Source: Candidatus Omnitrophota bacterium (GTDB lineage Bacteria > Omnitrophota > Gorgyraeia > 2-01-FULL-45-10). From it: a DNA stretch of 64,000 nucleotides. Location of the stretch: positions 512 through 64,511 of the forward strand of contig PLNN01000017.1 of the NCBI GenBank assembly GCA_003142795.1. Reading direction: 5' to 3'. Made by a program: the position numbers and the translations under genes. The notes under the pieces are model-generated. The model saw only the letters and a list, made by a program, of their open reading frames with translations, made no database searches and was not told where the DNA came from. Positions 29,534 to 51,923 of the stretch are shown here, in pieces (position 1 is the stretch's first letter; each line of letters starts with the position of its first letter).

Positions 29534-29539
29534 ATTGGG

Positions 29540-31030: not shown

Positions 31031-31034
31031 GGGT

Positions 31035-31460
31035 TTATTTTTTCTTATTTACACGATCGATAAAATCCCGATAATTTCTTATATAGTCGAACTCTTTATA
31101 AAAATCGGACGCTAAAACGAGTATGACGCAATCCGGAGAAAAATTATGCATCGTATGCCAGACATTGCTGCCCATATACACGCCCATGTGGGGCTTTGCC
31201 AGCAGCACCCTTTCCCTTCTAACCCCGTCGTCCAGCTGAAGCTCGAACGAACCGTTAATACAGAACAAGACCTGCTTCAGTCTCTTATGCGCGTGCTTTC
31301 CTCTCACGGCCTTCCTGGACTTCAGATTATTTATGAAATAAACTCTTTTGATCTGGAACGGCACCTGTTTCGCGCTCTCGGCTATCACCAGGTTCCCATC
31401 TATCCCGTCATCAAAGAATTTCAATTTGATGATCCTGCAGTTCCTGACTTTCATATCCAT
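31035..31460 (-). CDS. fdtA: WxcM/FdtA-like cupin, dTDP-4-keto-6-deoxyglucose 3,4-ketoisomerase
   Basis: 141 aa cupin with a HAHK..Q motif; typical size for FdtA. Confidence 0.6.
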   Translation of the reverse strand: MDMKVRNCRIIKLKFFDDGIDGNLVIAESAKQVPFQIKRVYFINNLKSRKAVRGKHAHKRLKQVLFCINGSFELQLDDGVRRERVLLAKPHMGVYMGSNVWHTMHNFSPDCVILVLASDFYKEFDYIRNYRDFIDRVNKKK

Positions 31461-32626: not shown

Positions 32627-33540
32627 AGATTGCTGCCAAGATATTTAAAAGGGTACTTCGCGCCTACCCGGCTATTCCAGGCAACGGTCTTTTCATATAC
32701 CTTAAACGGTAATGCCGGGTTGATCAGGCTAAGCAATTGCCAGGGAATGACTATGGTGCTGAATACCTTCTTTATCCTGAAACCGCTGCCGGTGAAGAGC
32801 CCCAGCCATTTCCCGGGCAGATAGCCCGCAAATTCATGCCCTAAAGTCTTATACGCGCCGTGCGGTTCCGGGAACGGAAAGTTCGGATGCAACGTAAGGA
32901 ATTCTTTTACTGACGAGCTGCCTGCCTTGGACGATGCGCCTCCGTCCCGGGCAGCCGGCGCATCAGGCTTCCTGAAAGGCGCTATTAAGAACCGGCCTAT
33001 CGCCCTCGCCAGCATGTCGCGATAATACACCAACGGATAAAATATCCTGTCTAAAAAACTGGGCACGACTATTATGGCCAGGCCTCCTTTTTTCAGGACC
33101 CTGTTCATTTCCTGAGCCGTCTTCTTCCTGTCCGGTATGTGCTCCAGCGTATTCAGCGAAAAGACGACATCAAAGGTGCCATCCTTAAAAGGAAGTTCTT
33201 CTCCCGAGCAGGATAATATGGAACAATTCGTTATATCCAGAGATTCTAGGAGCTTCTTCGAGTCGAGAAGCGCCTGGGTATGAGTCTTAAAATCTTGTTT
33301 AAAAAGGTCTGTTGCGATGATACGTCTGAATTTATATGATAAAAGGCATGAATTAAAACCGTTGCTGCATCCTATTTCAAGCGCCAGGCCCTGACGCGGT
33401 ATATCAAAAACGGAGAGGATCGCCTCCGCCTCCTTCGCGCGTAAACTGAAATAATTCTCCCATGGTTGAAGATCGGACGCTAAGGAAATGGCTTTTTTTC
33501 TTATATCTTCTATCGGTAAATAAGCGTCTTTTTGCGTCAT
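32602..33540 (-). CDS. class I SAM methyltransferase
   Basis: 312 aa. LEIGCSNGFN motif I. Confidence 0.6.
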   Translation of the reverse strand: MTQKDAYLPIEDIRKKAISLASDLQPWENYFSLRAKEAEAILSVFDIPRQGLALEIGCSNGFNSCLLSYKFRRIIATDLFKQDFKTHTQALLDSKKLLESLDITNCSILSCSGEELPFKDGTFDVVFSLNTLEHIPDRKKTAQEMNRVLKKGGLAIIVVPSFLDRIFYPLVYYRDMLARAIGRFLIAPFRKPDAPAARDGGASSKAGSSSVKEFLTLHPNFPFPEPHGAYKTLGHEFAGYLPGKWLGLFTGSGFRIKKVFSTIVIPWQLLSLINPALPFKVYEKTVAWNSRVGAKYPFKYLGSNLCMIVQKI

Positions 33541-33547
33541 AGGGAAT

Positions 33548-34654
33548 TTACTTCCCGTAAAACTCTCTGATCTTTTCTACTATATAGTTCATCTCTTTTT
33601 TATTAAGCTCCGGATATACCGGAATGGCGCATGTTTCAAGAGAGGCCTTTTCGGATTCTGAGAGATCGCCTTTTTTATACTTCAGCGATCTATAACATTC
33701 CTGGAGATGTAATGGAACAGGGTAATACGTTCTTGTCTCGATCCCGCTCTTGATCAAAAAGCTCATAAATGCCTCCAGGTTAGCATTAGGCCTTATGACG
33801 TACTGATGGTAAGTGTGAACATTATAGGACGGGACGTACGGCACGGTTATCGGCAAACCTTTCAGGTGGTCATTGTAAAACCTGGCCTTCTCTCTTCTTG
33901 CTTCAAGCCAGGAATCGATATGTTTGAGCTTGACCCTCAGCACCGCAGCCTGGATATTATCGAGCCTGGAATTTATCCCGATCATTAAGTGCAGATAGCC
34001 TCCCCGGCTTCCGTGAACACGGAGGATCTTCAGTGTTTCGAATAACTGCTTATCGTTTGTAACGACCATGCCGGCATCGCCGTAAGCGCCTAAATTCTTG
34101 CTTGGATAGAAACTTAAGCCACCCAGATCTCCCATCGATCCGGATTTTTTTCCTTTGTAAGCAGCGCCGATCGATTGAGCGCAATCTTCAACTATCTTAA
34201 GGTTGTGCTTCTTGGCAATAGCGATGATCGGGTCCATATCACAGCACTGTCCATAAAGGTGGACAGGTATGATCGCCTTTGTCCGCTTTGTTATCTTGGA
34301 GGCTATGAGCGCCGGGTCTATAGTATAGGTTTTGGGATCTATATCTACAAAAACAGGCGTTGCTCCTACTAAAGAGACGGCCTCCGCGCTTGCAAAAAAA
34401 GTGAACGGCGTGGTGATAACCTCATCTCCGGGCTTTATGCCCAGGGCCATCAATGATACTACTAACGCATCAGTGCCGGAAGCTACGCCGACCGCGTATT
34501 TAGTATTGCAATATTGAGCTATCTCTTCTTCCAATAGCTGCAGTTCTTTGCCAAGAACGAATTCCTGGCTGTCGATTATCTTCTTTATCGCCTTATTAAC
34601 ATCGGACCTGATTACCTTATATTGCCCTTTTAGATCTAAAATATTTACTTTCAT
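33548..34654 (-). CDS. DegT/DnrJ/EryC1 sugar aminotransferase (FdtB-like dTDP-3-keto-6-deoxyhexose transaminase by context)
   Basis: 368 aa. PLP-dependent fold-type I. A lysine is present in the [15 protein letters not shown] region. Lies next to the FdtA-like gene. Confidence 0.65.
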
Positions 34655-34738
34655 TTATCTCCTTTCTGAGAAATCCACATCATAGTCACAAAAGAATTAT
34701 ATGCTGACGGCTAAATTCTAAAACCCTGCATATTCGAC

Positions 34739-35011
34739 CTACCAATGATACCCGCAAGTGCCCTTCACTCCGATCCTCACCAGATCAAATTCGTCTCTGG
34801 GAAAATCGAAACAGCATAAATAATTCCCCTTTTCATCTTTTTTTCTATAAATATCGCATCCATTTTTTGTTAAATGCTTACAGTCCCCGCAGCATATGCA
34901 GCATTTTTTGCACATCCCTTTTCTAAGGGAGATCGCCTTCTCGTAGTGTTTCGGATTTATTATTAATAAGGTTTTAGCTCTTACCTTTGCTATAAAGCGC
35001 GGAATCTTCAT
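34739..35011 (-). CDS. small cysteine-rich protein (YkgJ-like CxxCCxCCxxC metal-binding motif)
   Basis: CKKCCICCGDCKHL cluster. AGGGGA RBS before the internal MKIP start. First gene after the divergent promoter region. Confidence 0.35.
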   Translation of the reverse strand: MKIPRFIAKVRAKTLLIINPKHYEKAISLRKGMCKKCCICCGDCKHLTKNGCDIYRKKDEKGNYLCCFDFPRDEFDLVRIGVKGTCGYHW

Positions 35012-35284
35012 CTTTCCCCTCATTGCCAGGTATTTAAATTTGAAGACAAATTAGAGATCCTTAAGCTTGTAATATTAACATAACTAAATTCATGCGTCAA
35101 TTAAAAAAATATGTCATTTTTTTATTATTCCTAAGTATTTATAAATAATATACTTACGTAATAATACTAAGCTAAGGCTATAGCGTTTACTTTATTTTAA
35201 ACGATTAAAACACGCCAATCCCTATTTTCCAAAAAATCCATTAAACACCGCCGAAACACCACCGACCGATGCAAAAAACTTTTG

Positions 35285-35314
35285 TTGACGGCTTACAACA
35301 AGAAGTTGTATAAT
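35285..35314 (+). promoter_or_regulatory. sigma70-like promoter for the plus-strand CDP-sugar operon
   Basis: -35 TTGACG (35285-35290), 18-nt spacer, -10 TATAAT (35309-35314). GGAGG RBS at 35335-35339, ATG at 35343. Confidence 0.55.
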
Positions 35315-35342
35315 TTAAAGCATTATTAAACCCGGAGGTTCT

Positions 35343-36125
35343 ATGAAAGTAGTGATCCTGTGCGGAGGTTTGGGAACAAGATTGCGCGAGGAAACAGAAT
35401 TCATCCCGAAGCCTATGATGGAGATAGGCGGCAAGCCGATACTCTGGCATATAATGAAGATTTATGCTCATTACGGATACAAAGAATTCATACTGTGCCT
35501 CGGCTATAAAGGTGAGATGATAAAAGATTATTTCTTGAATTACGAGGCCATGAATAACGATTTTACTATCCGGTTGGGGAGCCCCAGTAAAATAAATTTC
35601 AACAGCAACCACGCCGAAGACGGCTGGAAAGTAACGTTGGCGAATACCGGCGAGAAGGCCATGACGGGCTCAAGGATAAAGCAGGTAGAAAAATATATTA
35701 CCGAAGACGAATTTATGGTAACCTACGGTGACGGCCTTGCCGATATCGACCTGACCCGGCTTTTAAAACTTCATCGAAAACAAAAAAAGATCGGCACTCT
35801 CACCGGGGTACGGCCTCTTTCCCGTTTTGGAGAGGTGATCGAGGATCGCGGGATCGTAAAAGATTTTATCGAGAAACCCCAGGCATCTGAGGGTTATATC
35901 AATGGCGGTTTTTTTGTCTTTAACAGAAAATTTTTCGATTATCTGTCAAAAGAACATGATTGCGTATTGGAAAGGCAGCCCCTGGAGCAATTAACCGGAG
36001 AGAGGCAGCTATCCATATATCCCCACAAAGATTTTTGGCAGTGCATGGATACCTACCGCGATTACAGATATCTAAAAGATATGTGGGAAGCCGGCAACGC
36101 CCCTTGGAAAATTTGGAAAAGATAA
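35343..36125 (+). CDS. rfbF: glucose-1-phosphate cytidylyltransferase
   Basis: 260 aa. MKVVILCGGLGTRLREETEFIPKPM matches RfbF/DdhA very closely. Confidence 0.85.
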   Translation: MKVVILCGGLGTRLREETEFIPKPMMEIGGKPILWHIMKIYAHYGYKEFILCLGYKGEMIKDYFLNYEAMNNDFTIRLGSPSKINFNSNHAEDGWKVTLANTGEKAMTGSRIKQVEKYITEDEFMVTYGDGLADIDLTRLLKLHRKQKKIGTLTGVRPLSRFGEVIEDRGIVKDFIEKPQASEGYINGGFFVFNRKFFDYLSKEHDCVLERQPLEQLTGERQLSIYPHKDFWQCMDTYRDYRYLKDMWEAGNAPWKIWKR

Positions 36126-37105
36126 ATTATAAAAAATTCTGGGCAAATAAAACAGTCCTGGTAACCGGCCACGAAGGTTTCCTTGGCTCCTGCTTGTCAA
36201 AAACCCTCATAGATAGCGGTGCCAGGGTAATAGGCCTGGACAAGGTAAATAACAGGCCCGGCTCCATATTGAACAAAGACCTTAGAAAAAATATCGTGTG
36301 CATCCGCGGAAACGTCGCCAACCTTAAACTGATCAAAAAGCTATTCGATAAATACACGCCCGATATCGTCTTTCATCTGGCAGCCGAAGCCATAGTCAGC
36401 CGCGCGAATAATAAGCCCATCAGGACTTTTAAATCGAATATACAGGGCACGTGGAATATCCTGGAGGGCGCCAGAAATAAGAAATTTATCGGGGCTATTA
36501 TAGTGGCGTCGAGCGATAAAGCTTACGGCTCCCATGACGATCTTCCCTACCGCGAAGATTCCACCCCTCTCAAAGGGAGCCACCCTTATGACGTTTCTAA
36601 AAGTTGCGCGGATCTGATATGCCACACGTATCATAACACTTTTAATGTCCCGGTATGCGTTACCCGTTGCGGGAATATATACGGGCCGGGCGATCATAAT
36701 TTTTCAAGGCTGGTCCCCGACGCAATAAGGTCTGCTCTAAAAAATAGATCTCTCTCCATCCGAAGCGACGGTAAATTCACGCGGGATTACATATATGTAG
36801 GGGATGTCGTATCCGGATACCTGGCGTTAGCGGCAAAGATGAATAATAAGAAGGTGCACGGCGAGGCTTTTAATTTCAGCAACGAAAAGCCCGTTTCAGT
36901 GCTGGAAATAGTAAAACTGATATATAAGCTGTCCGGGAAACAGCCAAACTATAAGATATTAAACCTGGCAAAGCATGAAATAAAAGACCAATATCTTTCG
37001 GCAAAAAAAGCCAGGCGCTCTCTAGGATGGAAGCCTCTCTACGCGCTTGAAGAAGGATTGAAAGAAACGATCGATTATTATAAAAAGCGCTTTTTAAATA
37101 AATGA
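36113..37105 (+). CDS. rfbG: CDP-glucose 4,6-dehydratase
   Basis: (L)EKINYKKFWANKTVLVTGHEGFLGS matches the RfbG/DdhB N-terminus. Probable TTG start overlapping the rfbF stop; the tracked ORF's long N-terminal extension is probably not translated. Confidence 0.75.
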   Translation: MEKINYKKFWANKTVLVTGHEGFLGSCLSKTLIDSGARVIGLDKVNNRPGSILNKDLRKNIVCIRGNVANLKLIKKLFDKYTPDIVFHLAAEAIVSRANNKPIRTFKSNIQGTWNILEGARNKKFIGAIIVASSDKAYGSHDDLPYREDSTPLKGSHPYDVSKSCADLICHTYHNTFNVPVCVTRCGNIYGPGDHNFSRLVPDAIRSALKNRSLSIRSDGKFTRDYIYVGDVVSGYLALAAKMNNKKVHGEAFNFSNEKPVSVLEIVKLIYKLSGKQPNYKILNLAKHEIKDQYLSAKKARRSLGWKPLYALEEGLKETIDYYKKRFLNK

Positions 37106-38076
37106 AATCCTCTAATAAAAAGATCCTGGTCACCGGAGCAACGGGATTTGTAGGGGCGAATATCGCGCGGCATTTCGTCTCGCGCGGAGCCGACGTCGCC
37201 ATTTTTACAAGACATGGCTCCGATAAATGGCGAATAAACGATATTTTAAAGAAGATATCGGATTATCCTGTGGACTTGCTGGATGAGCGCTCGGTGCAAA
37301 AAACTGTGGCGCATATCAAGCCGGCAATAATATTGCATGCCGCCACTTACGGCGGTTATCAGCACCAGAAAGATACGAGAAAAATATTCGATGTAAATTT
37401 CACGGGGACCGTTAACCTGCTTAAGGCCTGCAAAGAAACCGGGTTCGAACTTTTTGTTCACACCGGATCTTCTTCCGAATACGGATTAAAGACAAAACCC
37501 ATTAAAGAGGATAGCTCACTCAAACCCGTTACCGATTACGGCGTCTCCAAGGCCGCCGCAAGTCTATATTGCCAGTCGTGCGCCTTAAGGGATCGCCTGC
37601 CGATCGCAATTCTAAGGTTGTTCTCGCCATACGGGTATTTTGACGATGCATCCCGTCTCATCCCGTATCTGATCGGGGAATGCCTGGCCGACAGAGGCCC
37701 CCGGCTTTCATCTCCTTTCGCGGTGAGAGATTTTATTTTTATAGATGACGTGCTGAATGCATATGTCAAGGTGATCGAGAATAAAAATATTTCCGCCGGC
37801 CATATATTCAACATAGGGTACGGCAAACAAAATCCGGTCGGATACGTGGCCGGGGAAGTGGCGCGGCTGACAGGAAGTCCGGAGGCATCCGTCCGCGCCG
37901 GTAAAATAAATCCAAGGCTGGAACCGGCAATGTGGCAGGCGGATATAGACAAAGCGCGAAAAATGCTCGGCTGGAGGCCGAAAACCGGCATTTCGAAAGG
38001 CTTGCAGAAAACTATCGAATGGTTCAAAACAAACAAAAAACTGTATAAAAACAGGATGACGCAAGATGTCTGTTAA
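37102..38076 (+). CDS. NAD(P)-dependent SDR reductase/epimerase (YerF- or CDP-paratose-synthase-like)
   Basis: 324 aa. ILVTGATGFVGANI Rossmann motif. Catalytic YxxxK in SSSEYG..YGVSK. Confidence 0.6.
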   Translation: MKSSNKKILVTGATGFVGANIARHFVSRGADVAIFTRHGSDKWRINDILKKISDYPVDLLDERSVQKTVAHIKPAIILHAATYGGYQHQKDTRKIFDVNFTGTVNLLKACKETGFELFVHTGSSSEYGLKTKPIKEDSSLKPVTDYGVSKAAASLYCQSCALRDRLPIAILRLFSPYGYFDDASRLIPYLIGECLADRGPRLSSPFAVRDFIFIDDVLNAYVKVIENKNISAGHIFNIGYGKQNPVGYVAGEVARLTGSPEASVRAGKINPRLEPAMWQADIDKARKMLGWRPKTGISKGLQKTIEWFKTNKKLYKNRMTQDVC

Positions 38077-39847
38077 ACTTTCGGACTATGTAATAGATTT
38101 TCTACGGAAAGAAGGGATCGGCTGCGTTTTCGAGGTTTGCGGCGGTTCGATAACCCATCTCCTGGATTCTCTATACGGCAGAAAAGATATACGCGCGATC
38201 TCGATGCATCATGAGCAGGCAGCTGCGTTCGCGGCTGAAGGATATGCCAGGGCAGGCGAAAACTTCGGAGTAGCGATGGCGACGAGCGGGCCCGGAGCGA
38301 CTAATCTCATAACCGGCATAGGAAGCGCATTTTTTGATTCTATCCCCTGCCTATTCCTGACGGGCCAGGTAAATACTTATGAGTTTAAATTTGACCGGCC
38401 GGTAAGACAGGTTGGCTTCCAGGAAACAGATATAGTAAATATCGTAAAACCGATCGTCAAGGAAGCGCATCTCGTGACAGAACCCGACAAGATACGCTAC
38501 TTTTTAGAAAGATCCGTGCATGTTGCAAGATCGGGGCGTCCCGGCCCTGTCCTCCTGGATATACCGATGAATATACAGCGGGCCATGATCAACCCAAAGA
38601 AATTAAAACCGTTCAGTCCGAAACCCGGCCCTGTCCTTTCTTTAGATAAAACGTCTATCCAAAAAATAGTGAAAGCCGTATCTTCTTCTGAGCGCCCGGT
38701 AATACTCGTTGGCGGAGGCATTCGCCTGGCAAAGGCCGAAGGAGAGCTGTTAAAATTCCTGGAACAGACCGGGATGCCTGTCGTATGTTCTCTGATGGGG
38801 CTTGACGCATGCCCGCATGAGCATCCTTCTTTTGTCGGAATGATAGGCACCTATGGTAACCGCTACGCAAATCTGACGGTTGCCAACGCCGATATGATAC
38901 TGGCTTTAGGCACGCGGTTCGATACCAGACAAACCGGGACCAGGCCATACACTTTCGCAAGAGGGGCCAGGATCATTCATGTTGACATAGACCCCCACGA
39001 GATCGGGAACAAAGTAAAGCCTTACGCGTCGGTCTGCGCCGATATAAAAAGTTTCCTGGATATTTTGAATAAAGATATCAAGCACTATGATAGATCCGGA
39101 ATATCGGATTGGAAAAAAACAATACGGCTGTATAAAACAAAATATCCGATGCCTGTAAGATCTTCCAAAAAACATATCGATCCTAACGTGCTGCTGAGCC
39201 GTCTCTCCGATCTTTTACCCGAAGATGCGATCATATGCGTCGACGTCGGACAGCATCAGATGTGGTCGGGCCAATCGTTAAAGATCAAAAGGCATCAACG
39301 CTTTATAACCGAGGGCGGAATGGCTTCGATGGGTTCGTCCCTCTCCATGGCCATAGGCGCGTCGTTCGCAAAACCGGAAAAAGACGTCATAGTCATAAGC
39401 GGGGACGGCGGATTCCAGGTCAACATACAGGAGCTCCAGACGATACGCCATCATAACCTGCCCATAAAAATAGTATTGTTAAATAATAACGGTTATGGCA
39501 TGATAAGGCAATTCCAAAAACAATATTTTGGCGGGCGTTTTCAGTCAACGGTTATCGGTTATAGTCAGCCAAACTTCGGGTCCGTTGTCGCATCGTATAA
39601 ATTGCCTGTCATAAAAGTATCGCGATATAACGAACTGGATAAGGCATTTAAGCGGTTTCTAAGAGAGCGCGGACCTATCTTTTTAGAGATAAAGATCGGA
39701 GAAGACGGTCTCGTTCTTCCGAAACTTTCCGTAAATCGCCCCGTAGAGGATCAGGACCCTCTCCTGCCTCTGGATGAGCTGAAGTCGAACATGCTTGTAG
39801 ATCTATTACCGGAAACGATCGATGACAAAATCAGAAAAAAAACTTAG
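38066..39847 (+). CDS. thiamine-diphosphate-dependent acetolactate-synthase-like enzyme (YerE-like two-carbon branch-forming enzyme)
   Basis: 593 aa. Three-domain ALS-like layout. GDGGF plus NNNGYGMI ThDP-binding motif. Confidence 0.65.
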   Translation: MSVKLSDYVIDFLRKEGIGCVFEVCGGSITHLLDSLYGRKDIRAISMHHEQAAAFAAEGYARAGENFGVAMATSGPGATNLITGIGSAFFDSIPCLFLTGQVNTYEFKFDRPVRQVGFQETDIVNIVKPIVKEAHLVTEPDKIRYFLERSVHVARSGRPGPVLLDIPMNIQRAMINPKKLKPFSPKPGPVLSLDKTSIQKIVKAVSSSERPVILVGGGIRLAKAEGELLKFLEQTGMPVVCSLMGLDACPHEHPSFVGMIGTYGNRYANLTVANADMILALGTRFDTRQTGTRPYTFARGARIIHVDIDPHEIGNKVKPYASVCADIKSFLDILNKDIKHYDRSGISDWKKTIRLYKTKYPMPVRSSKKHIDPNVLLSRLSDLLPEDAIICVDVGQHQMWSGQSLKIKRHQRFITEGGMASMGSSLSMAIGASFAKPEKDVIVISGDGGFQVNIQELQTIRHHNLPIKIVLLNNNGYGMIRQFQKQYFGGRFQSTVIGYSQPNFGSVVASYKLPVIKVSRYNELDKAFKRFLRERGPIFLEIKIGEDGLVLPKLSVNRPVEDQDPLLPLDELKSNMLVDLLPETIDDKIRKKT

Positions 39848-41150
39848 AGAAGAGATATTTAAAAAAATAGTCCGGTTTTACAAAGCCTGTCATGCGCCGA
39901 AAGAATTCATCCCCGGCACGACACCGGTAAAGTACGGAGGAAGGGTCTTTGACGAAAAAGAGCTCGTCAACTTGATCGACGCATCTCTCGATTTCTGGCT
40001 GACATCCGGCCGTTATGCCGCTTCTTTCGAGAAAAAACTGGCCGAATATTTATCTATAAAATATTGCATGCTTACGAATTCCGGCTCCTCCGCAAATCTT
40101 CTCGCCGTTACAGCCCTCACCTCTCCGCAGCTGGGCAAGAGGCGCTTAAAAGCCGGCGATGAGGTCATCACTACTGCCTGCGGCTTCCCGACCACGCTAA
40201 ACCCGATAATACAGAACAACCTTACACCCGTTTTTGTCGATGTTGAATTGGGCACCTATAATATCCGGGCGGATATTATAGAAAAAGCGGTCTCCAAAAA
40301 AACCAAAGCTATTTTTATACCGCATACTCTCGGCAACCCTGCCGCTATCGATCCCATTATAAAGATCGCCAGGAAATATAACTTATGGTTCGTAGAGGAC
40401 AATTGCGATTCGCTTGGATCCGTCTACAGGAATGCCTATACCGGCACCTTCGGAGACATCGCTACATGCAGCTTTTATCCTCCCCATCATATTACGATGG
40501 GCGAAGGCGGCGCGGTATTGACCGATTCTCCCCTGCTAAAAAAGATAATCCTTTCTTTGCGCGACTGGGGCAGGGATTGCTGGTGCGAATCCGGCCACGA
40601 TGATACCTGTCACAAAAGGTTTTCATGGAAATCAGGAAAGCTGCCGAGGGGATACGACCATAAGTATATATATTCCCACGTAGGATATAACCTGAGAGTG
40701 ACGGACATGCAGGCGGCAATAGGGCTTGCGCAATTGGACAAATTAGCGGCATTCACAACTGCGCGGAAGAAAAATTTTCAATACTTATACGATATATTCA
40801 AAAAATACGAGCGGTATATAGTCCTCCCCCGGCATGAAGCGCATGCCGAGCCAAGCTGGTTCGGCTTTCCTATTTTCGTAAAAAATTCCGCCCAGTTCAC
40901 GAGGGACGATATGGTCCGCTATCTCGAGTCTAAACGTATTACGACGAGAATGCTTTTCGGCGGCAATCTGACAAAACAGCCTGCTTATATGGACGCGCGA
41001 TACCGGATAGCGGGAGCGTTAACAAATACGGACGAAGTTATGAACAGGCTGTTCTGGATCGGCGTTTATCCCGGCCTTACCCCGCACATGTTACATTATG
41101 TCGAAGATACTATAAATAATTTTTTTAAGCACGCAATGCGTGCAAGGTGA
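39822..41150 (+). CDS. ddhC: CDP-6-deoxy-D-xylo-4-hexulose 3-dehydrase (E1/DdhC-like, PMP- and Fe-S-dependent)
   Basis: 442 aa DegT-like. SFYPPHHITMGEGG has His at the conserved PLP-lysine position. EDNC-X57-CWC-X7-C cysteine spacing. Confidence 0.7.
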   Translation: MTKSEKKLREEIFKKIVRFYKACHAPKEFIPGTTPVKYGGRVFDEKELVNLIDASLDFWLTSGRYAASFEKKLAEYLSIKYCMLTNSGSSANLLAVTALTSPQLGKRRLKAGDEVITTACGFPTTLNPIIQNNLTPVFVDVELGTYNIRADIIEKAVSKKTKAIFIPHTLGNPAAIDPIIKIARKYNLWFVEDNCDSLGSVYRNAYTGTFGDIATCSFYPPHHITMGEGGAVLTDSPLLKKIILSLRDWGRDCWCESGHDDTCHKRFSWKSGKLPRGYDHKYIYSHVGYNLRVTDMQAAIGLAQLDKLAAFTTARKKNFQYLYDIFKKYERYIVLPRHEAHAEPSWFGFPIFVKNSAQFTRDDMVRYLESKRITTRMLFGGNLTKQPAYMDARYRIAGALTNTDEVMNRLFWIGVYPGLTPHMLHYVEDTINNFFKHAMRAR

Positions 41151-41847
41151 CATCTTGAAACTGAGCATTATAATCACTTGCTTCAATGAAAAAAACACTA
41201 TATTAAAATCTATCGATGAGGCAAAAAAAGTATCGGTCGAAAAAGAGATAATAGTGATCGATAACGCTTCGACGGACGGGTCCCGGGAGCTCTTAAGCGA
41301 TCTGAAAGACAGCGGCATCAAAATAGTCTTCCAACCCAAAAACTTCGGATACGGTCAATCGGTTAAAACGGGAGCGGAGCTGTCGCGGGGAGATTTCATC
41401 TACGTTCATTATTCGGATCTTGAATATGACATAGAATGTGTTTACAGGATGCTGGCGATCGCGGAAAAAGACTCTCTCGATGTTGTATTCGGCTCGCGCC
41501 TTTATGAAAACAAAAAGAGCCCTATCGCGCTGATCAAAGAGAGGCCTTACTATGCGGGGACCATAGCTACAACCTTCATGATAAATCTGTTCTACGGAAA
41601 GCATTTTACGGATATCATAGGGACCCGCCTATACAAGGCGTCAAGTTTTAAAAAACTGGATATCGAATCAACGGGAATGAGCTTTGATTTTGAAGTAGTA
41701 AGCCTGGTATGCAAGAAGGGACTTAAAATGTGCGAAGTCCCTGTCAAGTATAAGCCAAGGTCCACGAGAGAAGGCAAAAAGATCAAGGCCATGGACATCA
41801 TACCGGCGATCCTTACCATATTAAAGTTAAAATTTTTACCTAAATAA
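41140..41847 (+). CDS. GT2-family polyprenyl-phosphate glycosyltransferase (ArnC/GtrB/DPM1-like)
   Basis: 235 aa. LSIIITCFNEK..IVIDNASTDGS. DxD-containing GT-A fold. Confidence 0.65.
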   Translation: MQGDILKLSIIITCFNEKNTILKSIDEAKKVSVEKEIIVIDNASTDGSRELLSDLKDSGIKIVFQPKNFGYGQSVKTGAELSRGDFIYVHYSDLEYDIECVYRMLAIAEKDSLDVVFGSRLYENKKSPIALIKERPYYAGTIATTFMINLFYGKHFTDIIGTRLYKASSFKKLDIESTGMSFDFEVVSLVCKKGLKMCEVPVKYKPRSTREGKKIKAMDIIPAILTILKLKFLPK

Positions 41848-41853
41848 TACGAA

Positions 41854-43179
41854 ATGATCAAAAATCCAAGACGAGTACTGCTTATTATCTTCATTATCTC
41901 GATAGCGCTGGCTTCCTTTTTTGCTGCGTTCTCCCGCCCCGTTGTTCAGGATGATGACCCCGGCCAATACGACACGATCGGATGGAATATAGCTCAAGGT
42001 AATGGCTTTTCTCTCGCACGCTCCGGACCTTTTACGCCGACCATGCTGCGCGAACCTCTATATCCATATTTTCTTGGGGTAATATACAAAATATTCGGGC
42101 ACGATTATCGCATTGCAATAGCGTTCCAGATCGTTCTATTCGCCCTTACATGCCTGCTCGTTTACATGATATCGAAAGAAATATTCGGTGATAAAATAGC
42201 GGCGTATTCCGCGCTCCTGACCGCCCTCTGTCCTACTTTGGCGAATTATACAAGTTACATATTGACGGAAACGACCTTCACCTTTCTTCTGTGCCTATTC
42301 ATCTTCGTCCTGATAAAAGCAATGAGATCGGGAAAGATGGCTTTATTCATAGCATCCGGAGCGATGCTGGGGTTTTGCGCCTTATGCAAAGCCGTAATGC
42401 TGCCGTTCTTTGCCGTTGCCGCCGTGACAATTCTTTTAAAACGCAAGGCGGCGCATGCGAGCTTATTCGTCCTGACATTTTTGCTGATAGTCTCGCCTTG
42501 GCCTTACCGGAATTACACCCTATTCAAGACCTGCCAGATGAGCCTGCGCGGCGGCGCAGTCCTGTGGGAGCGCGCGCAAAAGTCGGATGACACCATAGAG
42601 GATATGAAGCATGCTATTGCATTTAATTTTTCGGAATATCTGGGCAACAAGATGTTCCCGGGGCTTGTCGAAAATCCGAGAGATTTCATACTACAGGGTT
42701 CAAAAAAATCTCACGAAAAAGAGTATGAGTTGTCCGCGCGCGGCCTGACGCCGGTTAAGATCGATAAATTAATGGCAGCAGAGGCAAAAGAAAAAATAAT
42801 GGGCCATCCGATGAAATTCCTGTTTTACATACCGATAGAATTTATAAAAATGACATCCTTTATTTATGTGCCGGTACTGAATGAACCGGATGTGATAAAT
42901 AAATTTTATGGCCTAAAAAATGGGAAGGCGATGCTTTCTTTCCTGAGAAGCGTCTTTCGCCTAAGCGCTTATCCCATCCTTATACTGGCTTTTATGGGGA
43001 TTTTATTTGCAAGGCGGTCGTGGAAGGATTGGATATTAATGGCGGCTATTATGATCTATATAAATCTTATTTACAGCATGTTATTTGCCATGGGGAGATA
43101 CGCGGTTCCGTTAATACCTTTTTATTTAATTTTTGCCACAGTAGGATTCTTTGGATTATTTACGAGACACTCGGCATGA
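41854..43179 (+). CDS. GT-C membrane glycosyltransferase (ArnT/PMT-like, GT83/GT39 family)
   Basis: 441 aa polytopic. VVQDDDPGQYD acidic loop motif after TM1 is typical of ArnT/PMT. Confidence 0.6.
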   Translation: MIKNPRRVLLIIFIISIALASFFAAFSRPVVQDDDPGQYDTIGWNIAQGNGFSLARSGPFTPTMLREPLYPYFLGVIYKIFGHDYRIAIAFQIVLFALTCLLVYMISKEIFGDKIAAYSALLTALCPTLANYTSYILTETTFTFLLCLFIFVLIKAMRSGKMALFIASGAMLGFCALCKAVMLPFFAVAAVTILLKRKAAHASLFVLTFLLIVSPWPYRNYTLFKTCQMSLRGGAVLWERAQKSDDTIEDMKHAIAFNFSEYLGNKMFPGLVENPRDFILQGSKKSHEKEYELSARGLTPVKIDKLMAAEAKEKIMGHPMKFLFYIPIEFIKMTSFIYVPVLNEPDVINKFYGLKNGKAMLSFLRSVFRLSAYPILILAFMGILFARRSWKDWILMAAIMIYINLIYSMLFAMGRYAVPLIPFYLIFATVGFFGLFTRHSA

Positions 43180-43180
43180 A

Positions 43181-44338
43181 TTAAGGCAGTTGTTTCTTGC
43201 GAGGGTTCCACTTTTTGATAGTATTTGTAACATAACTCTGCTCGGGCTCAGATAGGCCGTTAAAAAAAGGAAGCCGGACAAGCCTGCTGCTGATATCCTC
43301 CGTAACCGGGCAATAGCTTATCTTAGAACCCATCCTAAGACCCATCGAAGAAAGGTGAAGGGGCACATAATGGAACGCGCTGGAAATCCCCTTATCCTTA
43401 AGATGCGCTATGAAAGAGTCCCGGGCCTTCAGGGAAGGTAAGATCAAATAAAACATGTGGTATGGTTGATCGCAGTGCGCAGGTATGAACGGAAGGCGCA
43501 CATCGTGCGCTTTAGCCCATTTTCCTAAATTTTCGTAATAACGAGCCCATATCAGGCGGCGCCTTTCCAGTATTTTCTTACTGCTCTCTAATTGCGCATA
43601 TAAAAATGCCGCGAGTATATCGGACGGCAAATAGCTTGACCCGATATCAACCCATGTATACTTATCCACCTCTCCCCGGCAAAAACTGGCGCGGTTGGTG
43701 CCTTTCTCCCGTATTATTTCGGCGCGTTTTATATATTTGGGGCCGTTCACTATGAGCGCCCCTCCCTCTCCGCATGTAAAGTTTTTTGTTTCATGAAAAC
43801 TCAGGGCTGACAGGCATCCGAAACTGCCCAGATCCCGGCCCTTATACTTACCAAAAAGGCCGTGCGCGTTATCTTCCACAACGGCAATATTTTTGCTGTT
43901 GGCTATACGCATGATCTCGTCCATTTCGCATCCTATCCCGCCATAATGCACCGGAACGACTGCCTTTGTTCTATGCGTGATCAAAGATCTTAACCGTCTC
44001 TCGTCCATATTAAGAGTGTCATCGCGAATGTCGATAAAAACAGGTTTTGCGCCGCGTAATACAAACGAATTCACAGTAGAAACAAATGAAAACGAAGGAA
44101 CTATTATTTCGTCCCCCTGCCGCACATCCAATAAAATAGCCGCCATCTCCAGGGCATGCGTACATGAAGTAGTCAGTAAAGCTTTTTTTACGCCCAGCTT
44201 CCGTTCAAGAACTTCCTGGCATTTACCGGTGAAAAAACCATCTCCGGAAATATGACCTTTTTCTATAGCCTTTTTAATGTAAAAAAGCTCATTCCCCGTA
44301 AGATAGGCCTTATTGAAAGGTATGCGATATTTTTTCAT
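43181..44338 (-). CDS. wecE: dTDP-4-keto-6-deoxy-D-glucose 4-aminotransferase
   Basis: 385 aa. [30 protein letters not shown] and IIREKGTNR are all WecE-like. Confidence 0.7.
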
Positions 44339-45267
44339 ATAGATTTAAAATAATCTATCGTTCGCGACAGCCCTTCTTCCAGGCCGACCTTAGGCTGCCA
44401 CTTAAGCATCTTTTTGGCTTTCGCGATATTGGGACGCCTGACTTTTGGATCGTCGACGGGAAGCGCCTTATAGACAATCTTGCTTTTTGAATTTGTGAGC
44501 ATGATTATTGTCCGGGCGAGTTTCAAAAGGGTCATTTCATTTGGATTCCCGATATTTACCGGATCATTTTCTTTAGACATCAAAAGTTTGTATATTCCAT
44601 TTACAAGGTCAGATACGTAACAAAAACTCCTCGTCTGCGAACCGTTGCCATAGACCGTGATCGGTTTATTATCCAGCGCCTGGTTGATGAAATTAGGTAT
44701 TGCCCTGCCGTCATTCTCGCGCATTCTCTCTCCGTAAGTATTGAATATGCGAACGATCTTTGTATTGATCCCATGATAACGATGATAGGCCATCGTGATC
44801 GCTTCGGCAAAACGTTTTGCTTCATCATAAACGCCGCGCGGGCCGATCGGGTTGACGTTCCCCCAGTAACTTTCCGGCTGAGGATTGACCAGCGGGTCAC
44901 CGTATACTTCGCTGGTAGACGCGAGAAAAAATACGCATCTTTTAGCCTTGGCCACTCCTAAGGCATTATGTGTGCCCAGAGCCCCGACTTTTAGCGTCGG
45001 GATAGGATATTTAAGATAATCTATCGGGCTTGCAGGAGAGGCGAAATGCAGAATATAGTCGATCCTGCCTTTTATGTTTATCTTTTCGGAAACATTATGT
45101 TTGACGAACTTGAAATTTTTTCCGGCGAAGAGATGTTCTATATTCTCGATCTTTCCTGTTATAAGATTATCCATGCATATTACATCATAACCTTTGCCCA
45201 GGAATAATTCGCAAAGATGCGAACCTATAAAACCCGCGCCGCCCGTTATTAATACTTTTTTTCTCAT
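44335..45267 (-). CDS. uxs: UDP-glucuronate decarboxylase (UDP-xylose synthase)
   Basis: 310 aa. [14 protein letters not shown]; [10 protein letters not shown]; YDEAKR catalytic motif. Confidence 0.75.
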
Positions 45268-46196
45268 TTATTTTTGAACCATTCTACGGTACGTTTTAGC
45301 CCTTCCGTGAAATGGACTATCTTCTTTATCTTCAAAAGCCGCTTCATCTTGCTTATATCGGCGTAACTTTTCCGCACGTCTCCCGGCCTTTTTGGGCCAT
45401 GCTCCGGCTTGATATCCGTCTTCAGCATCTTATTAAGCGTATTGACTATATCGATAACCGATGTTGTAGTCCCGCAGGCTATGTTAAAAACCTCGCCTGA
45501 TATTCCGGGCGTGAGGGCGGCCTTTAAATTCGCTTCGACGACGTTCGCCACGTATGTAAAATCCCTGGATTGTTTACCGTCCCATTCGACTACCGGCATC
45601 TCTCCCTTCATCAGATTAAAAATGAACATCGGTATGACCGCAGAATATTTTGATTCCGGGTTCTGGCGCGGCCCGAAGACATTAAAATATCTTAAAGATA
45701 CCGTCTCCAGCCCGAACGTTTTCGCGAATGTAACACAGTAATTCTCCGCCGCGAGTTTCGATACGCCGTAAGGCGATATGGGCGAGGCGTGATCCGTCTC
45801 TTTTTGCGGGAATTTTTTTACATCCCCGTACGCGGAACTTGATGACGCGTAAACTACCCTTTTGACCTTATTGTCCCTTGCCGCTACCAGGAGATTCAGC
45901 GTTCCGAAAACATTCACCTCGTTGGACATAAAAGGATCTTCGACCGACTTGGCTACAGAGCGCAGCGCTGCCTGGTGTATCACGAAATCAACGCCCCTCA
46001 TGCTCGAGTCCAGCGCTTTCCTGTCCCTTATATCGCCCTCTATAAGCTCTATCCTGTTCAAAAAAGGCTCTATGTTCTCTTTTTTGCCGGTTATGAAATT
46101 ATCGAGGACACGCACTTTTTCGCCGCGCCGCACCAGCTCCTCGACTATATTCGAGCCTATGAACCCCGCCCCGCCCGTAACAAGATAATTTGCCAT
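45264..46196 (-). CDS. NAD-dependent UDP-sugar 4-epimerase (WbpP/TviC-like)
   Basis: 310 aa. [13 protein letters not shown]; SSSSAYG; YGVSK. Confidence 0.65.
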
Positions 46197-47521
46197 TACA
46201 GCCTCACTATGTTCGATCTTTTGGTTATGCCTTTCAGCACGTTCCTGGTGTCAACCACCAGGTCGGAATTATCCGCGATAAATTTATAATCTACGTTGGT
46301 ATGGTCGGTGACGATCACTACGCAGTCGGAATCTTTAAACGAATCTTTATTGAACGGAACGCCTTTCAGATTTATATCGTGTATCTTTAGATACGGCAGG
46401 TATGGGTCGTAATAAGAAACGATCGCGCCTTTTTCCATCAGGAGATCTATTACCTCCAATGACGGGGATTCGCGCAGATCCTTTACGTCTTTTTTGTACG
46501 CAACTCCGACCACCAGCACCTTCGAACATCTTAGCGGCTTGCGCTGATCGTTCAGCCCCTCGATAACTTTATCAACGACGTAATGCGGCATCTCTGAATT
46601 GACCTGCGACGCAAGATCTATGAACCGTGCCTCAAAACCGTGCATGCGCGCCTTCCATGAAAGGTATATGGGATCCACGGGAATGCAATGGCCGCCGACG
46701 CCCGGGCCCGGATAGAACGGCATGAACCCATACGGCTTGGTCTTGGCCGCGTCTATCACTTCCCAGACGTCTATGCCGAGCCTGTCGCACATGAGCATCA
46801 GCTCGTTGACCATGGCTATATTGACTATGCGGAACGTGTTCTCCAGGAGCTTTACCATCTCTGCAACCTTGCTCGATGAGACGGGGATAACCGTATCGAT
46901 GGCCTGCTCGTATAACGTTTTAGCGATATCCGTGGAATTCCGGGAAATGCCGCCGATGATCTTAGGGGTATTTTTAGTAGCATACTTCTCGTTGCCCGGG
47001 TCTATTCTTTCGGGGGAGAAGGCGAGATAAAAATCCTTCCCTTCTTTCAAGCCGTCCGATTCAAGTATAGGCAGCATCACTTCTTCGGTCGTGCCGGGAT
47101 AGGTAGTCGACTCAAGAACTATTATCTGGCCCCGCTTCATGTATTTCTTTATGTTATTCACGGCCGAGACTATGTATGAGACATCCGGTTCTTTTGTCTT
47201 ATATAACGGCGTCGGCACGCAGATGATAACGGCGTCACATTCTTTTATACGCCCGAAGTCGGCGGTAACGGCAAATCTTTTTTTAGCCATCGCATCTTTT
47301 ATATCCGCGGACGATACATCCAGGATATAAGATTTATGGCTATTGAGCCTCTTTATCCTGTCTTTGTCAATGTCGATGCCGTAAACCCTGAATCCCTTTT
47401 TCGCAAAACTAAGCGCCAGCGGCAAGCCGACATAGCCCAGCCCTATTATCCCTATCCGCGCTTTTATGTTCAATATCTTCTCTTTCAATAATTTCAACAT
47501 GTTCCTCTCCTTATTGATCAC
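46196..47521 (-). CDS. UDP-N-acetylhexosamine 6-dehydrogenase (WbpA/TviB-like nucleotide-sugar dehydrogenase)
   Basis: 441 aa. IGIIGLGYVGLPLA Rossmann motif. Catalytic Cys region GPGVGGHCIPVDP. Confidence 0.7.
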   Translation of the reverse strand: MINKERNMLKLLKEKILNIKARIGIIGLGYVGLPLALSFAKKGFRVYGIDIDKDRIKRLNSHKSYILDVSSADIKDAMAKKRFAVTADFGRIKECDAVIICVPTPLYKTKEPDVSYIVSAVNNIKKYMKRGQIIVLESTTYPGTTEEVMLPILESDGLKEGKDFYLAFSPERIDPGNEKYATKNTPKIIGGISRNSTDIAKTLYEQAIDTVIPVSSSKVAEMVKLLENTFRIVNIAMVNELMLMCDRLGIDVWEVIDAAKTKPYGFMPFYPGPGVGGHCIPVDPIYLSWKARMHGFEARFIDLASQVNSEMPHYVVDKVIEGLNDQRKPLRCSKVLVVGVAYKKDVKDLRESPSLEVIDLLMEKGAIVSYYDPYLPYLKIHDINLKGVPFNKDSFKDSDCVVIVTDHTNVDYKFIADNSDLVVDTRNVLKGITKRSNIVRL

Positions 47522-50091: not shown

Positions 50092-50094
50092 ATT

Positions 50095-50541: not shown

Positions 50542-50543
50542 CT

Positions 50544-51848: not shown

Positions 51849-51872
51849 CCGTAACCCCTTCTAATTCATAAA

Positions 51873-51902
51873 ATTATATCATAATATTACTATTAAGGAC
51901 AA
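51873..51902 (-). promoter_or_regulatory. sigma70-like promoter for the ugd-rml-UDP-sugar operon
   Basis: Minus strand: -35 TTGTCC (51897-51902), 18-nt spacer, -10 TATAAT (51873-51878). GAAGGGG RBS, then ATG at 51848. Confidence 0.4.
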
Positions 51903-51923
51903 GAGAAAAAAGGAGCTTAAAAA

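What the first reader, a model, noticed from the sequence alone, without database searches (positions are those of the whole stretch)
39822..41150. E1-type dehydrase hallmark residues visible directly in sequence
In the DegT-family alignment position where PseC has SFHPVKSITTGEGG, this protein has SFYPPHHITMGEGG. The Schiff-base lysine is replaced by histidine, as in PMP-dependent E1/ColD 3-dehydrases. It also has Cys residues spaced EDNC-(57 aa)-CWC-(7 aa)-C. This matches the unusual C-X57-C-X1-C-X7-C [2Fe-2S] motif reported for E1 of the ascarylose pathway.
Basis: seen in the sequence. Interest (0 to 1): 0.55.

Follow-up and report, generated by a model that had tools for sequence, protein, structure and literature searches.

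The report
Ordinary E1 (RfbH) sugar 3-dehydrase gene

Summary
ORF 39822..41150 (+) encodes 442 aa containing SFYPPHHITMGEGG, and cysteines 195, 253, 255 and 263 are spaced exactly C-X57-C-X1-C-X7-C.

The protein scores 709.8 bits on NCBIfam's RfbH equivalog model (cut-off 423). It aligns without gaps, at 56% identity, to the crystallised Yersinia E1 (3bcx, E 1e-165). His222 falls on E1 His220 and the four cysteines fall on E1 Cys193/251/253/261. Three DegT paralogues in the same window keep lysine at that position. In 120 homologues plus 3bcx, the His and the last three Cys are invariant, and the first Cys is present in 116 of 121.

The family is very large and is already named RfbH in public annotation.

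The gene lies in a tightly packed seven-gene + strand operon: glucose-1-P cytidylyltransferase, a CDP-glucose 4,6-dehydratase-like SDR, a second SDR, an acetolactate-synthase-like ThDP enzyme (YerE-like), E1, a DPM1/ArnC-like GT2, and a PMT_2 GT-C. This suggests a yersiniose-type C4-branched 3,6-dideoxyhexose.

No E3 reductase gene occurs in the window, nor next to E1 in 80 other genomes.

Verdict: a new member of a known kind, of low interest.

The parts
35285..35314 (+). Promoter-like site (TTGACG-18-TATAAT, 11 of 12 matches), 29 nt upstream of the first operon gene
   Evidence: This is a consensus match only. The region as a whole is only modestly above its shuffles (24 sites against 17.9 +/- 3.9).
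35343..36125 (+). Glucose-1-phosphate cytidylyltransferase (RfbF/DdhA type), which makes CDP-glucose
   Evidence: TIGR02623, 332.7 bits against a cut-off of 300.25. 47% identical to Salmonella RfbF.
36104..37105 (+). CDP-glucose 4,6-dehydratase-like extended SDR (RfbG/DdhB type). The longest ORF starts at 35960 (TTG); the gene call in the Logan copy corresponds to a start at 36104.
   Evidence: The best NCBIfam hit is TIGR02622 at 225.8 bits, below the cut-off of 278.45. The best PDB hits are CDP-glucose 4,6-dehydratases 1wvg and 1rkx, at E 4e-40. 30-34% identical to RfbG. Gene call.
37102..38076 (+). Extended SDR, 324 aa. Candidate ketoreductase of the pathway (YerF-like side-chain reduction or C4 reduction); function inferred.
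   Evidence: Pfam Epimerase, 164 bits. No NCBIfam equivalog model is passed. 34% identical to the SDR that sits between rfbG and rfbH in the Methylovirgula branched-sugar cluster L083.
38066..39847 (+). ThDP-dependent acetolactate-synthase-like enzyme, 593 aa. Proposed YerE-like C4 branching enzyme.
   Evidence: Has the three TPP_enzyme domains. TIGR00118 scores 514.6, below the cut-off of 538.35. The best PDB hit is 5ahk at E 1e-113, and JanthE (8rph) scores 1e-101. A homologue lies near E1 in 39 of 81 loci, on the same strand in 37.
39822..41150 (+). E1 / RfbH / DdhC / AscC orthologue: CDP-4-keto-6-deoxy-D-glucose 3-dehydrase (the finding itself)
   Evidence: NF011936, 709.8 bits against a cut-off of 423. 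3bcx at E 1e-165, ungapped. 56% identity to 3bcx.
40470..40511 (+). SFYPPHHITMGEGG. His222 (codon 40485-40487) replaces the Schiff-base lysine.
   Evidence: His is 121/121.
40404..40610 (+). C-X57-C-X1-C-X7-C span: Cys195 (40404-40406), Cys253 (40578-40580), Cys255 (40584-40586), Cys263 (40608-40610). Proposed [2Fe-2S] ligands.
41140..41847 (+). Small GT2 glycosyltransferase, 235 aa, of the polyprenyl-phosphate sugar synthase type (DPM1/ArnC/GtrB/PpgS-like)
   Evidence: Pfam Glycos_transf_2, 99.7 bits. The NCBIfam best hits, AglJ, PpgS and dolichyl-P hexose transferase, are all below their cut-offs. The closest solved structures are dolichol-P-mannose synthase 5mlz (8e-8), ArnC and GtrB.
41854..43179 (+). 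GT-C-type membrane glycosyltransferase, 441 aa (PMT_2 / ArnT-like family)
   Evidence: Pfam PMT_2, 59.2 bits. No sequence match in the PDB.

Best explanation
ORF 39822..41150 encodes a true orthologue of E1 (RfbH/DdhC/AscC), the PMP- and [2Fe-2S]-dependent CDP-4-keto-6-deoxy-D-glucose 3-dehydrase.

Mechanism, taken from the characterised Yersinia enzyme and inferred here: PMP forms a Schiff base with the C4 keto group of the CDP-sugar. His222, which sits where aminotransferases have the cofactor-binding lysine, abstracts the C4' proton so that the 3-OH leaves. The resulting PMP-glucoseen intermediate is then reduced by two single electrons delivered through a [2Fe-2S] cluster held by Cys195/253/255/263. 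The product is CDP-4-keto-3,6-dideoxy-D-glucose.

In this operon the substrate is made by the first two genes (glucose-1-P cytidylyltransferase and a CDP-glucose 4,6-dehydratase-like SDR). The product is most likely branched at C4 by the upstream YerE-like ThDP enzyme, with a 2-keto acid donor (pyruvate by default), and then reduced by the 324-aa SDR. That would give a yersiniose-type branched 3,6-dideoxyhexose.

The downstream DPM1/ArnC-like GT2 and the GT-C suggest delivery through a polyprenyl-phosphate carrier to an extracytoplasmic acceptor.

No dedicated E3 reductase is encoded nearby. The electrons therefore come either from an unlinked E3 or from a general ferredoxin or flavodoxin system, as shown in vitro for SpnQ.

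Shown here: orthology, residue identities and gene order. Inferred: cofactors, substrate, the branching step, the carrier route and the electron donor.
For: Orthology. RfbH equivalog model NF011936 scores 709.8 bits against a cut-off of 423, over residues 3-437 of 442. 3bcx (Yersinia E1) matches at E 1e-165, ungapped over residues 4-435, with 56% identity. Salmonella RfbH is 54% identical.

Catalytic residues. His222 aligns with His220, and Cys195/253/255/263 align with Cys193/251/253/261. Asp196, Tyr219 and Phe347 align with E1 Asp194, Tyr217 and Phe345. All are conserved in 116-121 of 121 sequences. Three in-window DegT paralogues have Lys at the His222 column and lack the Cys-bearing insertion. 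The review PMC8987622 states that E1 and SpnQ carry a four-cysteine [2Fe-2S] motif, that His replaces the catalytic Lys, and that ColD lacks the cluster.

Context. The cytidylyltransferase passes TIGR02623. The dehydratase-like SDR is closest to CDP-glucose 4,6-dehydratases. Six of the seven genes overlap their neighbour.

Branching enzyme. The ThDP enzyme fails the AHAS equivalog cut-off, and no other ThDP or ACT-type gene accompanies it in the operon. Homologues sit near E1 in 39 of 81 loci. YerE acts on exactly the E1 product (PMC9306805; PMC12247030).

Glycosyltransferase. The GT2's nearest solved structures are all polyprenyl-phosphate glycosyltransferases.

Reductase. No E3 homologue was found by Pfam scans of all 57 window ORFs examined, by a ferredoxin-motif scan, or by tblastn with Salmonella E3 (E > 1 everywhere except the positive control). 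SpnQ works with general ferredoxin or flavodoxin reductase pairs.
Against: Nothing speaks against E1 orthology.

The weaker links are these:
- The dehydratase-like SDR scores below the CDP-glucose 4,6-dehydratase cut-off (225.8 against 278.45).
- The ThDP enzyme scores nearly as well against plant AHAS (E 1e-110) as against 5ahk (1e-113). Sequence alone therefore does not separate YerE-like from AHAS.
- The ThDP gene is directly adjacent to E1 (gap under 300 nt) in only 7 of the 39 loci that have it.
- The GT2 and GT-C assignments rest on hits below their cut-offs, and this pair is not conserved next to E1 elsewhere: the GT-C was found only in the window and its own copy L001.
- Transfer of a CDP-activated sugar to a polyprenyl phosphate is inferred, not documented here.
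- Absence of E3 from 64 kb does not show absence from the genome.
Confidence: 0.93

Rival explanations
1. The gene is E1, but the operon makes a plain unbranched 3,6-dideoxyhexose of the abequose, paratose, tyvelose or ascarylose type. On this reading the 324-aa SDR is the C4 reductase, and the ThDP enzyme is an ordinary acetolactate synthase or has some unrelated role.
For: The ThDP enzyme's top NCBIfam hits are all acetolactate synthase models, and plant AHAS structures score almost as high as 5ahk. The Salmonella cluster needs only one SDR after RfbH, the abequose synthase.
Against: The ThDP enzyme falls below every acetolactate synthase model cut-off. It is translationally coupled, overlapping both the SDR and E1. 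Homologues recur on the E1 strand in 37 other loci from many phyla. The SDR is only 24% identical to abequose synthase, but 34% identical to the SDR of a transketolase-type branched-sugar cluster.
Confidence: 0.12
2. The protein is a SpnQ-like dTDP-sugar 3-dehydrase. It would act on dTDP-4-keto-2,6-dideoxyglucose made from the dTDP-sugar genes elsewhere in the window.
For: The window also holds rmlA/B/C/D-like genes at 47511..50541 (-). SpnQ shares the His and the Cys motif and has no dedicated E3.
Against: The protein passes the CDP-specific RfbH equivalog model. It sits in one operon with a glucose-1-P cytidylyltransferase that passes its own equivalog cut-off. No Nudix-type 2,3-dehydratase, which a 2,6-dideoxy route needs, turned up in any Pfam scan of the window.
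Confidence: 0.03
3. The protein is a ColD-type Fe-S-free dehydratase, or a conventional DegT aminotransferase.
For: It belongs to the DegT family. ColD also has His at the lysine position.
Against: ColD matches far more weakly (E 3e-55 against 1e-165) and aligns with gaps across the Cys region. ColD has no Fe-S cluster, whereas all four Cys are present here. There is no Schiff-base lysine. No GDP-mannose genes lie in the operon.
Confidence: 0.01

Closest known systems
E1 (AscC/DdhC/RfbH), CDP-6-deoxy-L-threo-D-glycero-4-hexulose 3-dehydrase of Yersinia pseudotuberculosis (PDB 3bcx) and Salmonella RfbH
   Same: The two proteins have almost the same length (442 against 437 aa) and align without gaps at 56% and 54% identity. 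The catalytic His, the four Cys with identical spacing, and Asp, Tyr and Phe at the positions of E1 Asp194, Tyr217 and Phe345 all match. Both sit in a CDP-glucose operon.
   Different: No E3 (RfbI/AscD/DdhD) gene lies next to it, whereas in Salmonella E3 sits immediately upstream of rfbF. E1 Cys192 and Cys257 are Asn194 and His259 here. The host is an uncultured Omnitrophota bacterium. The downstream chemistry is probably branching rather than simple C4 reduction.
Yersiniose and erwiniose pathways (YerE/YerF, ErwE/ErwF)
   Same: A single ALS-like ThDP enzyme and an NAD(P)H-type reductase are encoded alongside the genes for CDP-4-keto-3,6-dideoxyglucose.
   Different: Identity to YpYerE itself could not be measured because no sequence was available. 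No aldolase or aldehyde dehydrogenase genes of the ErwI/ErwJ type lie in the operon, so a simple pyruvate donor is the default guess. The sugar product is unknown.
SpnQ (spinosyn dTDP-4-keto-2,6-dideoxyglucose 3-dehydrase)
   Same: It is an E1-type His plus [2Fe-2S] dehydrase that has no dedicated E3 and can use general ferredoxin or flavodoxin reductase pairs. That is the likely working mode here if no E3 exists in the genome.
   Different: SpnQ uses a dTDP 2,6-dideoxy substrate in a secondary-metabolite context. Here the context is CDP-glucose.
ColD (GDP-4-keto-6-deoxymannose 3-dehydratase, PDB 2gms/3b8x)
   Same: Same fold family, with His in place of Lys.
   Different: ColD has no Fe-S cluster, uses hydrolysis plus glutamate-driven PMP regeneration, and acts on a GDP sugar. 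It matches only at E 3e-55, with gaps in the Cys region.

Membership tests
E1 / RfbH / DdhC / AscC (CDP-4-keto-6-deoxyglucose 3-dehydrase) | Full-length match to the curated equivalog model above its cut-off | tested here: met
   NF011936 scores 709.8 bits against a cut-off of 423, covering residues 3-437 and model positions 4-438 of 440.
E1 / RfbH / DdhC / AscC (CDP-4-keto-6-deoxyglucose 3-dehydrase) | Histidine at the position of the aminotransferase Schiff-base lysine (E1 His220) | tested here: met
   His222 aligns with His220 of 3bcx, and with the Lys found at that column in 3bb8, whose sequence differs from 3bcx there. Three in-window DegT paralogues have Lys there. His is present in 121 of 121 sequences.
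E1 / RfbH / DdhC / AscC (CDP-4-keto-6-deoxyglucose 3-dehydrase) | Four cysteines spaced C-X57-C-X1-C-X7-C (E1 Cys193/251/253/261). The motif is as reported by Agnihotri et al. 2004; I recalled it, could not read the paper, and found no paper with the string. | tested here: met
   Cys195/253/255/263 have this exact spacing and align column for column with the E1 cysteines. Conservation is 116-121 of 121. A four-Cys motif in E1 is confirmed by the review PMC8987622.
E1 / RfbH / DdhC / AscC (CDP-4-keto-6-deoxyglucose 3-dehydrase) | Residues reported to distinguish dehydrase from aminotransferase (E1 Asp194, Tyr217, Phe345). Their significance is recalled from Smith et al. 2008, which I could not read. 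| tested here: met
   Asp196, Tyr219 and Phe347 align with them. They are conserved in 121, 117 and 121 of 121 sequences.
E1 / RfbH / DdhC / AscC (CDP-4-keto-6-deoxyglucose 3-dehydrase) | Bound PMP and a [2Fe-2S] cluster, and 3-deoxygenation activity on the CDP-sugar | not testable with these tools
   Needs purified protein: UV-vis, EPR and an activity assay.
E1 / RfbH / DdhC / AscC (CDP-4-keto-6-deoxyglucose 3-dehydrase) | Genes that make the CDP-4-keto-6-deoxyglucose substrate in the same cluster | tested here: met
   The cytidylyltransferase passes TIGR02623 (332.7 against 300.25). The dehydratase-like SDR is closest to CDP-glucose 4,6-dehydratases but scores below the cut-off (225.8 against 278.45).
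E1/E3 two-component system (as in Yersinia and Salmonella) | A dedicated E3 reductase (plant-type [2Fe-2S] ferredoxin domain plus an FNR-like FAD/NAD module) encoded with E1 | tested here: not met
   No Fer2, FAD_binding_6 or NAD_binding_1 hit in any of the 57 window ORFs scanned. The ferredoxin-motif scan found none. tblastn and phmmer with Salmonella E3 gave E > 1 for the window and for 81 other loci, while the positive control L082 was found. The rest of the genome was not available.
YerE-like ThDP sugar-branching enzymes (for ORF 38066..39847) | ALS-like three-domain ThDP enzyme with a GDG...NN ThDP motif | tested here: met
   TPP_enzyme_N, _M and _C are all present. GDGGFQVNIQELQTIRHHNLPIKIVLLNNNG is visible in the translation.
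YerE-like ThDP sugar-branching enzymes (for ORF 38066..39847) | Encoded within a CDP-3,6-dideoxy-4-ketohexose gene cluster rather than an ilv operon | tested here: met
   It overlaps the SDR upstream and E1 downstream. It falls below the AHAS equivalog cut-off. Homologues lie near E1 in 39 of 81 loci.
YerE-like ThDP sugar-branching enzymes (for ORF 38066..39847) | Closer in sequence to characterised YerE-like enzymes than to true AHAS | tested here: inconclusive
   5ahk scores 384 bits (as I recall, this is PpYerE; one search found no paper to confirm it). Plant AHAS scores 371 bits, and JanthE 8rph scores 344 bits.
YerE-like ThDP sugar-branching enzymes (for ORF 38066..39847) | Carboligation of a 2-keto acid onto the C4 ketone of the CDP-sugar | not testable with these tools
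   Needs an enzyme assay.
ColD (Fe-S-free GDP-sugar 3-dehydratase) | No cysteine cluster motif, and a GDP-mannose pathway context | tested here: not met
   All four Cys are present. The context is CDP-glucose. The ColD match is weak and gapped.

The most novel reading that the evidence does not exclude
In this Omnitrophota bacterium, and in many other uncultured lineages, E1 works without a dedicated E3 and draws electrons from a housekeeping ferredoxin or flavodoxin. The operon then turns glucose-1-phosphate into a CDP-activated C4-branched 3,6-dideoxyhexose. A DPM1/ArnC-like GT2 loads that sugar onto a polyprenyl phosphate, and a GT-C enzyme transfers it outside the cytoplasmic membrane. I know of no characterised example of that delivery route for a CDP-activated dideoxy sugar.
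Probability: 0.25. Interest if true: 0.4.

Novelty: new member of a known kind. Interest (0 to 1): 0.15.

Why it matters
As a finding about the protein it matters little. It is a correct reading of textbook hallmark residues in a gene that standard annotation models already name RfbH.

The context has modest value:
- It places a complete E1 plus YerE-like operon in Omnitrophota.
- E1-type genes in a broad sample of environmental genomes were never clustered with E3. This bears on how the one-electron PMP chemistry is powered outside Enterobacteria.
- ThDP-based sugar branching, of both the ALS-like and the split-transketolase type, accompanies E1 in about half of the sampled loci. That agrees with a reported in-silico survey of more than 200 YerE-like clusters (PMC12247030).

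Tried and rejected
1. Primary E1 and SpnQ papers (PMC2782820, PMC2515268, PMC2515278) are not held. A full-text search for the motif string found nothing. The exact wording 'C-X57-C-X1-C-X7-C', and the significance of Asp194, Tyr217 and Phe345, therefore rest on my recollection. The review read and the direct alignment to 3bcx support them.

2. The search for E3 used three independent methods plus a positive control, and all were negative.

3. Structure prediction was not run. At 56% ungapped identity to a crystal structure it would add nothing, and model coordinates are not returned, so Cys-Cys distances could not be measured.

4. The identification of 5ahk as PpYerE could not be confirmed in the library. 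8rph was confirmed as JanthE.

5. The exact source genome was not among the species representatives: the best E1 locus was 68% identical. The organism was instead inferred from AccD hits.

6. The SpnQ-like, ColD-like and aminotransferase readings were considered and rejected, as set out under the rival explanations.

Full report
**Observation.** The window holds an ATG-initiated ORF at 39822..41150 on the + strand, coding 442 aa. Its translation contains SFYPPHHITMGEGG at residues 217-230, bases 40470-40511. It has cysteines at 195 (EDNC), 253 and 255 (CWC) and 263, so the spacing is exactly C-X57-C-X1-C-X7-C. Four further cysteines (23, 82, 120, 216) lie outside the motif.

**What the protein is.** It scores 709.8 bits on the NCBIfam equivalog model for RfbH (NF011936, cut-off 423) over essentially its whole length. 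The next best model, PseC, reaches only 187.9 bits against a cut-off of 423.5. Pfam places it in DegT_DnrJ_EryC1.

Against all PDB sequences the best match is 3bcx, the Yersinia pseudotuberculosis CDP-6-deoxy-L-threo-D-glycero-4-hexulose-3-dehydrase (E1). The E-value is 1e-165, and the alignment is ungapped from residue 4 to 435 with a constant offset of +2. Identity is 56%. ColD structures follow at E 3e-55, with gaps exactly in the cysteine-bearing region.

Because the alignment is ungapped, the residue correspondences are unambiguous:
- His222 corresponds to E1 His220. 3bb8, whose sequence has Lys in place of that His, aligns at the same column (as I recall, it is the H220K mutant).
- Cys195/253/255/263 correspond to E1 Cys193/251/253/261.
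- Asp196, Tyr219 and Phe347 correspond to E1 Asp194, Tyr217 and Phe345.

**Internal control.** The window itself carries three ordinary DegT aminotransferase paralogues, at 12455..13615, 33548..34654 and 43181..44338, all on the - strand. When aligned with E1, all three have lysine in the His222 column. All three lack the insertion that carries Cys253/255/263.

**Conservation.** The named hits are called RfbH, CDP-6-deoxy-D-xylo-4-hexulose-3-dehydrase or 'E1'. The nearest non-identical relative is 73% identical.

In an alignment of the 120 best hits plus 3bcx, His222, Cys253, Cys255 and Cys263 are invariant (121/121). Cys195 is present in 116 of 121, and the other five have Ser. The review PMC8987622 confirms three points: E1 and SpnQ carry a four-cysteine [2Fe-2S] motif around PMP, His replaces the catalytic Lys and acts as the general base, and ColD lacks the cluster.

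**Source organism.** The identical protein exists in NCBI, ENA and Logan assemblies, on contigs up to 148 kb, without a name. The window's AccD (58193..59035, -) has best named relatives at 82-87% identity, and all are from Candidatus Omnitrophota. The window therefore comes from an uncultured Omnitrophota genome.

**Surroundings.** E1 is the fifth gene of a compact + strand operon running from 35343 to 43179. Six of its seven genes overlap their neighbour, and a 6-nt gap separates the last two. A promoter-like site lies 29 nt upstream of the first gene, though this is a consensus match only. The genes, in order, are:
1. Glucose-1-phosphate cytidylyltransferase, which passes TIGR02623.
2. A CDP-glucose 4,6-dehydratase-like SDR. 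Its best hits are TIGR02622 and PDB 1wvg/1rkx, but it scores below the model cut-off.
3. A 324-aa extended SDR.
4. A 593-aa ALS-like ThDP enzyme.
5. E1.
6. A 235-aa GT2.
7. A 441-aa PMT_2 GT-C.

The first two genes supply E1's substrate.

The ThDP enzyme falls below the cut-offs of all acetolactate synthase models. Its best PDB hit is 5ahk, and JanthE (8rph), a characterised YerE-like enzyme, also matches strongly. Plant AHAS scores are similar, so sequence alone is inconclusive.

Context decides the matter. YerE is the ThDP flavoenzyme that adds a two-carbon branch to CDP-4-keto-3,6-dideoxyglucose, which is the E1 product. YerF then reduces the branch (PMC9306805; PMC12247030). Among 80 genome loci fetched through E1, an ALS-like ThDP gene lies within 10 kb in 38, or 39 of 81 when the window is counted. 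It is on the same strand in 37. In about 7-10 further loci a split transketolase takes its place. The most likely product is therefore a yersiniose-type C4-branched 3,6-dideoxyhexose.

The GT2's nearest solved structures are all polyprenyl-phosphate glycosyltransferases: dolichol-P-mannose synthase, ArnC and GtrB. Together with the GT-C, this suggests a lipid-carrier route to an extracytoplasmic acceptor. That step is inference only, and the pair is not conserved next to E1 elsewhere.

**The missing partner.** In Yersinia and Salmonella, E1 receives electrons from E3, a ferredoxin-FNR fusion encoded in the same cluster. The Salmonella locus L082 shows E3 immediately upstream of rfbF.

Here, Pfam scans of 57 window ORFs found no Fer2, FAD_binding_6 or NAD_binding_1 domain. 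A six-frame scan for the plant-type ferredoxin motif found nothing credible in the window or in any locus. tblastn and phmmer with the Salmonella E3 gave no hit below E = 1 in the window, in the 80 genome loci or in the Methylovirgula plasmid locus. The same motif scan and tblastn recovered the positive control.

The electron donor is thus either an unlinked E3 or a general ferredoxin or flavodoxin system. The latter is the arrangement shown for SpnQ. The rest of the genome could not be searched.

**Comparison and novelty.** The protein meets every sequence-testable defining feature of E1/RfbH. It is not ColD-like, because the Cys motif is present and the context is CDP, and it is not an aminotransferase, because it has no Lys. 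The family is large, crystallised and mechanistically characterised, and it is named automatically by curated models. Clusters combining E1 with YerE-like enzymes have already been surveyed in silico, with more than 200 reported. The finding is therefore a correct but ordinary annotation: a new member of a known kind.

The only mildly unusual points are the consistent absence of E3 next to E1 in this environmental sample, the possible polyprenyl-phosphate delivery route, and a small Omnitrophota subgroup with Ser in place of the first cluster cysteine.

**Limits.** Cofactor content, substrate, product and electron donor are all inferred. The loci compared were chosen for similarity to this E1, so the co-occurrence frequencies are not an unbiased census. 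The motif wording, and the roles of Asp194, Tyr217 and Phe345, are recalled from Agnihotri et al. 2004 and Smith et al. 2008, which could not be read here.

Noticed in passing
window 1..64000; loci L002-L081 and L083: No E3 (RfbI/AscD) reductase gene lies in the window, or within 10 kb of E1 in any of 80 genome loci from many phyla, or on the Methylovirgula plasmid. The Salmonella control locus L082 has E3 adjacent to the CDP-sugar genes. E1 without a clustered E3 seems to be the rule in this sample.
   Followed up: yes
L011:1542-2495, L081:13143-13964, L083:9373-11126 and about 7 further loci: In loci that lack the ALS-like ThDP gene, a split transketolase (Transketolase_N plus Transket_pyr/Transketolase_C) sits next to E1. 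This suggests an alternative ThDP-dependent route to branching the same sugar.
   Followed up: partly
proteins P0067, P0080, P0085, P0087, P0119 (homologues of window 39822..41150): Five E1 homologues have Ser instead of the first motif cysteine (the Cys195 column) while keeping the other three Cys and the His. The two that carry an organism name (P0067, P0085) are Omnitrophota. Whether Ser ligates the cluster or another Cys substitutes is unknown.
   Followed up: partly
window 23..24125 (- strand): This is a large glycan-modification island. It holds two NeuB-family synthases (10297..11352, 22700..23584), three CMP-sugar-type cytidylyltransferases (1067, 7026, 21135), a PseB/PseC-like pair (12455..14606), three radical-SAM/SPASM proteins and one B12-binding radical-SAM protein. 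It also holds several methyltransferases, an ATP-grasp protein and an ABC exporter. It looks like nonulosonic-acid biosynthesis with unusual tailoring.
   Followed up: partly
window 14620..16410, 16394..17608, 51991..54186 (all - strand): Three long ORFs (596, 404 and 731 aa) inside or beside the glycan island have no Pfam hit at E <= 1e-5.
   Followed up: no
window 50095..50541 (-): This 148-aa ORF hits both dTDP_sugar_isom (RmlC cupin, 61.7 bits) and Polysacc_synt_C (50.4 bits) over the same residues. That combination is odd and was not resolved.
   Followed up: no
window 28172..29533 (-) and 41854..43179 (+): The window holds two separate PMT_2-type GT-C glycosyltransferases. The first sits beside a Wzx-like flippase (29540..31030) and an FdtA-like isomerase (31035..31460).
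   Followed up: no
window 54232..57044 (-): Two adjacent GGDEF diguanylate cyclase genes, one with GAF domains, lie just downstream of the sugar island.
   Followed up: no
L083 (Methylovirgula sp. HY1 plasmid pHY1) 5151-12526: An annotated rfbF-rfbG-SDR-rfbH-transketolase cluster sits next to a GT2 and a GtrA-family protein. This is another case where an E1 pathway is paired with Gtr-like, polyprenyl-phosphate-type transfer genes.
   Followed up: partly
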